64,000 bases of DNA from Eledone cirrhosa (taxonomy: Eukaryota), in assembly GCA_964016885.1 (NCBI GenBank), contig OZ024752.1, positions 30,938,001 through 31,002,000 on the forward strand, given 5' to 3'. A program made the position numbers and the translations under genes. The notes beneath the pieces were generated by a model. That model did not search any database. It had not been told where the DNA came from and was given only the letters and a program-made list of their open reading frames with translations. Shown piece by piece: positions 36,848 to 37,221 of the stretch (position 1 is the stretch's first letter; each line of letters begins with the position of its first letter).

Positions 36848-37221
36848 AAGGAACCAGGTGGACCATAACGCACCAAAGTATTCAATACTTAGGGTAGTAG
36901 AGTGGGTAATAGGAACGAGAAGGACCCCGACGGCTGAGCTCAAGCCGTTTCGACGGCTAAATCTGGACTCAGATTTAGCCGTCGAAACGGCTTGAGCTCA
37001 GCCGTCGGGGTCCTACTCGTTCCTATATATATATATATATATATAGGAACGAGTAGGACCCCGACGGCTGAGCTCAAGCCGTTTCGACGGCTAAATCTGA
37101 GTCCAGATTTAGCCGTCGAAACGGCTTGAGCTCAGCCGTCGGGGTCCTTCTCGTTCCTATTACCCACTCTACTACCCTAAGTATTGAATACTTTGGTGCG
37201 TTATGGTCCACCTGGTTCCTT
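36848..37221. repeat. 374-bp nested palindrome containing four hammerhead 3' halves
   Basis: 187-bp arms centred on (TA)n 37024-37045. Each arm holds a 57-bp-stem hairpin with GAAAC-GGCTTGAGCTCAGCC-GTC on both strands. Confidence 0.9.

What the first reader, a model, noticed from the sequence alone, without database searches (positions are those of the whole stretch)
36848..37221. Nested palindrome made of hammerhead 3' halves lacking the CUGAUGA strand
Seen: a 374-bp palindrome centred on (TA)n, each arm containing a 57-bp-stem hairpin. Both strands read ...CCGTC-GAAAC-GGCT-tgagctc-AGCC-GTC-GGGGTCC. Known: GAAAC, a stem III with palindromic loop and a GUC triplet form the 3' half of the type I hammerheads in Penelope pLTRs and retrozymes. 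Inference: the 5' catalytic strand was replaced by a fold-back at stem II and the unit was then inverted again. This would give a non-autonomous, dsRNA-forming derivative that might be cut only in trans by intact family members.
Basis: partly seen in the sequence, partly recalled or inferred. Interest (0 to 1): 0.72.

Follow-up and report, generated by a model that had tools for sequence, protein, structure and literature searches.

The report
Doubled Penelope retroelement stub in TA
The nested palindrome is two mirror-image copies of one short, back-to-back end-piece of a very common Penelope-like jumping gene, likely doubled by a local fold-back at the TA repeat, so it is likely an ordinary insertion footprint rather than a new ribozyme device.

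Summary
In detail: 187-nt perfect outer arms, each with a 57-nt stem. Each half is a standard inverted, 5'-truncated end of a (TA)n-targeting Penelope-like retroelement, with a one-sided tail of about 80 nt. The genome holds at least 13,928 such units, with 38 different centres in 50 sampled, so they are made afresh at insertion and are not one spreading derivative. Long copies run into an RT plus C-terminal GIY-YIG ORF with Hydra-clade-like motifs.

The missing catalytic strand exists in long copies but reads UUGANAA (U3:A8 swap; 1,241 of 2,085 hits), not CUGAUGA (G8 in only 29). Arms stop inside loop II, likely at the RNA start, not at stem II.

The outer palindrome is a duplicate of one unit. 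Short-spacer head-to-head pairs are rare (32 loci), and 13 of them share private changes. It likely formed when a young 607-bp array inserted beside the unit. Reads could not confirm it. Trans-cleavage is unlikely because the hairpin buries the motif. This scan already noted similar stubs elsewhere in this genome.

The parts
34619..36848 (-). Young 607-bp tandem array (3 units + 409 nt) of a dispersed family; fixed end in a TA tract at 34619, variable end joined to the palindrome by a 1-nt A overlap. Strand inferred from fixed versus variable ends.
36848..36969 (-). Left copy, long arm: loop II remnant, stem II 3' strand, GAAAC, stem III, GUC, stem I 3' strand, then tail lacking its outer 16 nt
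36970..37025 (+). Left copy, short tail-less arm ending at GTTCC|TA
37024..37045 (.). (TA)11, target tract and centre of the outer palindrome
37044..37099 (-). Right (likely original) unit, short tail-less arm
37100..37159 (+). Right unit, long arm: begins at AGTCCAG (likely RNA start, initiator-like), TAGCCG stem II 3' strand 37110-37115, GAAAC 37118-37122, stem III with palindromic loop, GUC 37138-37140, stem I 3' strand
37160..37237 (+). One-sided tail of about 80 nt; in full-length elements it continues into the ORF start
37238..37284 (.). (TA)n target tract at the tail end

Best explanation
The palindrome consists of two identical mirror copies of one back-to-back, 5'-truncated end-piece of a TA-targeting Penelope-like retroelement, likely made in two steps. 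Step 1 (structure shown, mechanism inferred): the element's endonuclease cuts a (TA)n tract, and both DNA ends prime reverse transcription at two internal TA sites about 80 nt apart near the front of the element's RNA. Both copies run about 55-140 nt to what is likely the RNA start in hammerhead loop II and are joined head to head with a variable joint. The catalytic strand (UUGANAA in the parent) lies upstream of that point and is never copied. Step 2 (duplication shown, mechanism inferred): the self-complementary TA flank of this unit folded back and was extended along its own strand for 178 nt, probably when the neighbouring 607-bp array was inserted, and was joined to the array's truncated end. 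The product has no catalytic core and no evident function.
For: At least 13,928 fold-back units genome-wide. 38 distinct centres in 50 consecutive units; 34 of 100 arms end 9-10 nt upstream of the stem II 3' strand, only 5 of 100 go beyond 12; tail on one side in 41 of 50. Long copies of the same subfamily continue into a GIY-YIG/RT ORF. L128 has a 710-aa open frame with RWR, DKT, CxCx5C, YIG, CxxC and CxH, the Hydra-clade features of PMC8557442 section 11. 5 of 30 ORF-bearing 5' ends start with the same loop II joint. The tail-less arm is the longer in 12 of 41 units, and L270 joins a 607-array to a long arm of this family; both favour two separately primed ends. Both-strand priming and two internal RT starts are shown in vitro for another PLE (PMC11167929). 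The window's two copies share a centre and variants found in 0 of 50 sampled units. 13 of 32 head-to-head pairs share private changes. All array copies listed begin at unit position 1 and end variably.
Against: No RNA data show the start site; a strong RT stop in loop II would give the same pile-up. 18 of 30 ORF-bearing 5' ends extend upstream past loop II (13 with intact core by script, 5 with a mutated core on inspection). Hairpin-tip deletions after insertion could also make centres differ. None of the other array ends seen showed an inverted duplication of its flank. Rfam found no hammerhead in 5 loci with the complete motif, and Pfam found nothing for the ORF. About 40% of complete AGCC-type copies (844 of 2,085) are not U3:A8; 13 of 57 inspected were C3:A8, which breaks the core pair.
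Confidence: 0.75

Rival explanations
1. Each unit arises from one cDNA that stalls in structured loop II, snaps back and copies itself; no RNA start is involved.
For: Arms of one unit nearly always carry the same subfamily letters (30 of 50 differ by at most 1 of 38 nt). Loop II holds a small inner stem whose 3' base is near the stop. Self-priming was proposed for PLE palindromes (PMC3846280 passages).
Against: The tail-less arm holds more 5' sequence than the tailed arm in 12 of 41 units. Chimeric joins to other templates occur (L270). The stop sits at an initiator-like TCAGT/TTAGT (consensus recalled, not tested).
Confidence: 0.2
2. The outer inversion is an assembly or read fold-back artefact at the TA tract.
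For: Arms are 100% identical over 187 nt, and TA tracts can fold back.
Against: The inversion is short and has distinct flanks. The left join falls at the variable end of an array family. Similar partial duplications elsewhere have accumulated mismatches (e.g. L156, L158). The adjacent array units are also about 100% identical, which fits a young event.
Confidence: 0.12
3. One reading: a self-spreading non-autonomous derivative whose dsRNA is cut in trans by intact family members.
For: The unit lacks the catalytic strand, and intact-looking partners with a palindromic loop III exist in thousands of copies. Dimeric hammerheads are proposed for PLEs (PMC4209133).
Against: Centres vary from copy to copy. 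No second copy of the nested unit was found among 32 head-to-head loci. The hairpin is predicted at -128.6 kcal/mol for one unit and buries the substrate strand.
Confidence: 0.05
4. Two independent insertions landed head to head in one TA tract.
For: 11 of 32 head-to-head pairs differ in subfamily letters and so arose this way.
Against: The window's copies are identical for 178 nt, including the joint and three rare variants, and the left tail does not end in TA.
Confidence: 0.02

Closest known systems
Hydra clade of C-terminal EN+ Penelope-like elements (Craig et al. 2021, PMC8557442; section 11, passages and supplement part 2 read)
   Same: RT with C-terminal GIY-YIG, DKT, CxCx5C linker, CxxC and CxH motifs, (TA)n targeting, inverted 5'-truncated copy, one-sided tail, hammerhead in the pLTR with an unpaired step after G10.1.
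   Different: RWR instead of RWK; tail about 80 nt rather than 30-40; hammerhead core U3:A8, whereas every Hydra row in the part of their File S2 that I read has CUGANGA; not the listed Hydra-1_oBim motif.
U3-A8 minimal hammerheads of Schistosoma Cercyon PLEs (Cervera and De la Pena 2014, PMC4209133; parts 1-2 of 4 read)
   Same: U3-A8 covariation in a PLE pLTR; pairs of motifs on opposite strands 100-700 bp apart; palindromic loop III.
   Different: Here stem III is a full 5-6 bp and loop II about 39 nt; the dominant genomic form keeps only the 3' half.
PAc Poseidon element in vitro (Frangieh et al. 2024, PMC11167929; parts 1-2 of 4 read)
   Same: Two internal RT start sites defining the tail; both target strands cut and extended; hammerhead cleavage not needed for insertion.
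   Different: Different clade; here both starts coincide with a TA in the element that matches the target.
Animal non-LTR retrozymes (bioRxiv 10.64898/2026.07.22.740005; part 1 of 5 read)
   Same: Non-coding, pLTR-derived, type I hammerhead ancestry.
   Different: Retrozymes are head-to-tail tandems with a complete hammerhead per unit; this is inverted and has none.

Membership tests
EN+ Penelope-like element | Single ORF with RT and GIY-YIG endonuclease linked to the pLTR | tested here: met
   L128 710-aa frame with YRDD and YIG; ORF pieces in all of L128-L137; window arm aligns with their pLTR. Pfam gave no hit.
EN+ Penelope-like element | Inverted 5'-truncated copy and one-sided tail | tested here: met
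   Tail on one side in 41 of 50 units, both sides in 1, not scored in 8
Hydra clade | C-terminal EN, DKT, CxCx5C linker, CxxC and CxH near conserved E and N | tested here: met
Hydra clade | RWK motif | tested here: inconclusive
   RWR at residue 27 of the L128 frame
Hydra clade | CCHH motif absent from the EN core | tested here: met
   By inspection only one Cys lies between VIY and YIG
Hydra clade | Insertion into (TA)n | tested here: met
Hydra clade | Canonical CUGANGA hammerhead | tested here: not met
   Core is U3:A8 or C3:A8; hence filed as Hydra-like, not as a member
Hydra clade | Placement in the RT phylogeny | not tested
Type I hammerhead (parent pLTR) | Stems I-III around the core, G10.1:C11.1, NUH triplet, 3:8 pair | tested here: met
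   57 of 57 selected copies G10.1:C11.1, 55 C17, 43 U3:A8; hammerhead fold at or within 0.7 kcal/mol of the MFE in 3 of 3. No Rfam hit.
Type I hammerhead (parent pLTR) | Self-cleavage | not testable with these tools
   Needs an in vitro assay
Type I hammerhead (window unit) | Catalytic strand present | tested here: not met
Non-LTR retrozyme | At least two consecutive tandem units with a complete hammerhead | tested here: not met
   Inverted units without a core

The most novel reading that the evidence does not exclude
The element's promoter starts RNA inside its own hammerhead, so the natural transcript begins with a substrate-only half ribozyme that both target ends copy. About 14,000 head-to-head stubs with base-precise ends would then be a genome-wide record of twin-primed Penelope insertion and perhaps dispersed outward-facing promoters, and their TA flanks would seed fold-back duplications such as this one.
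Probability: 0.35. Interest if true: 0.6.

Novelty: new member of a known kind. Interest (0 to 1): 0.27.

Why it matters
As a locus it is a by-product. As a family it offers thousands of exact insertion ends for testing how Penelope-like elements make inverted ends and tails, which the papers read call unresolved. It also shows that CUGANGA-only searches miss an abundant U3:A8 hammerhead family, and that 844 of 2,085 complete copies lack the U3:A8 pair, in line with cleavage being dispensable for insertion.

Tried and rejected
1. Of 30 inspected, 23 lie in the centre of an inverted unit, 7 at joins with other sequence or in loop II, and none follows the ACCCC stem I strand, so they are by-products.
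2. Rfam gave only generic hairpin (miRNA) matches below gathering score on the window and on 5 parent loci. Pfam gave nothing useful.
3. Run search: no RNA holder listed. Contigs of X1-X4 and RAD reads of X21 cannot span the palindrome, and no listed contig bridged the 36848 junction. The array letters differ in X1-X3, so they may be another individual; inconclusive.
4. Arm-specific variant test: the CTTCTCG variant occurs on both tailed and tail-less ends in similar numbers among 66 hits; uninformative.
5. Cap signature: G precedes the A in 6 of 11 arms ending exactly there, but in several the G is explained by the other arm; weak.
6. MITE or Helitron: no terminal inverted repeats, and the sequence is traced to a PLE.
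7. My hammerhead scan printed no complete motif in 34000-38000 or beyond 59000, which covers the 607-bp array.
8. A look-up of earlier notes by sequence found nothing.
9. Literature searches found no paper describing this family or nested Penelope palindromes; subscription papers and Repbase are not covered.

Full report
OBSERVATION. One search finds perfect 187-nt arms (36848-37034, 37035-37221) centred in (TA)11, and in each arm a 57-nt stem with one mismatch and a 4-nt loop. The hammerhead-half motif occurs four times here and twice near 63.0 kb, against 0.01 expected. The right-hand unit continues to 37237 and a TA tract. The left copy stops 16 nt short and abuts a 607-bp tandem array. The host is a 3.0-Gb animal genome; its repeats look cephalopod-like to me, which is recalled and untested.

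THE UNIT IS A COMMON INSERTION. A search with one arm gave 1,515 first-look candidates, of which 40 were scored. The 30 loci fetched showed the same layout: (TA)n, short arm, variable centre, long arm, tail of about 80 nt, (TA)n. An exact pattern for the fold-back finds 13,928 loci. In the first 50 of these on contig C1 there are 38 distinct centres; 41 have the tail on one side, 1 on both, and 8 were not scored by the script. The centre is therefore made anew at most insertions. This layout matches the inverted 5'-truncated copy with an optional tail described for Penelope-like elements (PMC8557442 passages; PMC3846280 passages).

THE PARENT. Rare longer centres gave an upstream 25-mer with 1,075 exact hits. 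These loci, and those of the window's own subfamily, run upstream into a GIY-YIG endonuclease and RT. L128 holds a 710-aa open frame with RWR, DKT, YRDD, CxCx5C, YIG, CxxC and CxH. These are the features listed for the Hydra clade, which also targets (TA)n. Pfam has no model that hits it, and I ran no tree, so I file it as Hydra-like. In full-length copies such as L132 the tail continues into the ORF start (159 exact junction hits). Both arm ends fall on a TA of the element itself. This fits the two internal RT start sites and the both-strand extension shown in vitro for a Poseidon element (PMC11167929).

THE HAMMERHEAD. In long copies the 5' strand reads ACCCC, then U/C-U-G-A-N-A-A-G, two unpaired bases, and CGGCUA, which pairs with the UAGCCG seen in the window; loop II is about 39 nt. 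Genome counts: 2,085 with TGANRAG, 1,241 of them U3:A8, and only 29 with G8 under a looser pattern, of which 3 of 10 inspected had C3. Among 57 copies parsed, 43 were U3:A8, 13 C3:A8, 1 U3:U8 and none G8; about half of these loci came from the pattern, which fixes part of the core. The hammerhead fold is the MFE or within 0.7 kcal/mol of it in 3 of 3 copies, but Rfam does not detect it and activity is untested. U3-A8 is already reported in Schistosoma PLE hammerheads (PMC4209133) and described as active in vitro (PMC3088659 passages). The Hydra rows of File S2 that I read all have CUGANGA. The 33 CTGANGA hits near the half motif are by-products of the joints.

WHY THE CORE IS MISSING. Arms stop in loop II: 34 of 100 at 9-10 nt upstream of the stem II 3' strand and 5 of 100 beyond 12 nt. 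That position is the AGT of TTAGTC/TCAGTC, which resembles an initiator (recalled consensus). Drosophila Penelope has an internal promoter (PMC2377424, abstract only). Five of 30 ORF-bearing 5' ends begin with the same joint, while 18 extend further upstream and 7 are other joins. An RNA start is the simplest reading; I took this lead from earlier scan notes and could test it only indirectly. A strong RT stop remains possible. A single snap-back is disfavoured because the tail-less arm is longer in 12 of 41 units, and because L270 joins a 607-array to a long arm of this family.

THE OUTER PALINDROME. Head-to-head pairs within 30 nt number 32 (one is not TA-centred). Over their first 50 nt, 11 differ in subfamily letters (independent insertions), 13 share private changes (copies of one another) and 8 are uninformative, the window among them. 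Further out, the window's copies are identical for 178 nt, including the joint and variants seen in 0 of 50 sampled units, so one is a copy of the other. The 607-bp array belongs to a young dispersed family (97-100% identity among full units listed) whose arrays start at the same base in a TA tract and end variably. The left copy is fused to that variable end with a 1-nt overlap. The likely history is a cut in the unit's TA flank, one end copying the array RNA and the other folding back on itself. L038 and L043 show single arms fused to palindromes of other DNA. None of the other array ends seen showed such a duplication, and public reads could not confirm the junction, so an artefact is not excluded.

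FUNCTION. RNA spanning one unit is predicted to form a 57-bp hairpin (-128.6 kcal/mol) and the whole palindrome a 185-bp hairpin (-390), which would bury the substrate strand. dsRNA would follow from any read-through, but nothing here shows expression or selection.

VERDICT. The feature is real. It is a known kind of footprint from a new, abundant Hydra-like family with a known variant core, plus a locus-specific duplication. Interest 0.27. Searches found no description of this family; Repbase, subscription papers and bioRxiv supplements were not visible.

Noticed in passing
window 62981-63163: Second, older mini-unit of the same family (one tail, different centre, small deletion) between TA tracts.
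   Followed up: partly
window about 60200-62400, minus strand: Decayed Penelope-like RT and C-terminal EN starting at a TA tract; 42% identical to the L128 protein over 338 aa, so a different family.
   Followed up: partly
window 34619-36848: Young 607-bp tandem family with a fixed TA-anchored end and a variable other end; no ORF of 120 aa and no complete hammerhead found; likely mobilised by a PLE enzyme.
   Followed up: partly
L038:1330-1530 and L043:1330-1545: Single arms of this family fused to perfect or near-perfect palindromes of other DNA, suggesting fold-back of the target end.
   Followed up: no
L006, downstream of the unit: Another hairpin family with an apparently complete canonical hammerhead core and 5-bp stem II.
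   Followed up: no
L098, L108, L109, L122, L123, L127: A subfamily with C3:A8, a broken core pair, still appears to have multiplied.
   Followed up: partly
G000:C3:214146624-214147754: Five tail-to-ORF junctions spaced about 273 bp apart: a head-to-tail tandem of pLTR-derived units, possibly retrozyme-like.
   Followed up: no
L249: 281-bp inverted duplication across a TA tract that includes non-element flank.
   Followed up: no
window 528-2753 (+): Intronless 741-aa frame resembling a Ca2+/H+ exchanger (recalled resemblance, not searched).
   Followed up: no
window 53706-55523 (+): 605-aa non-LTR (LINE-type) RT frame between long TA-rich tracts.
   Followed up: no
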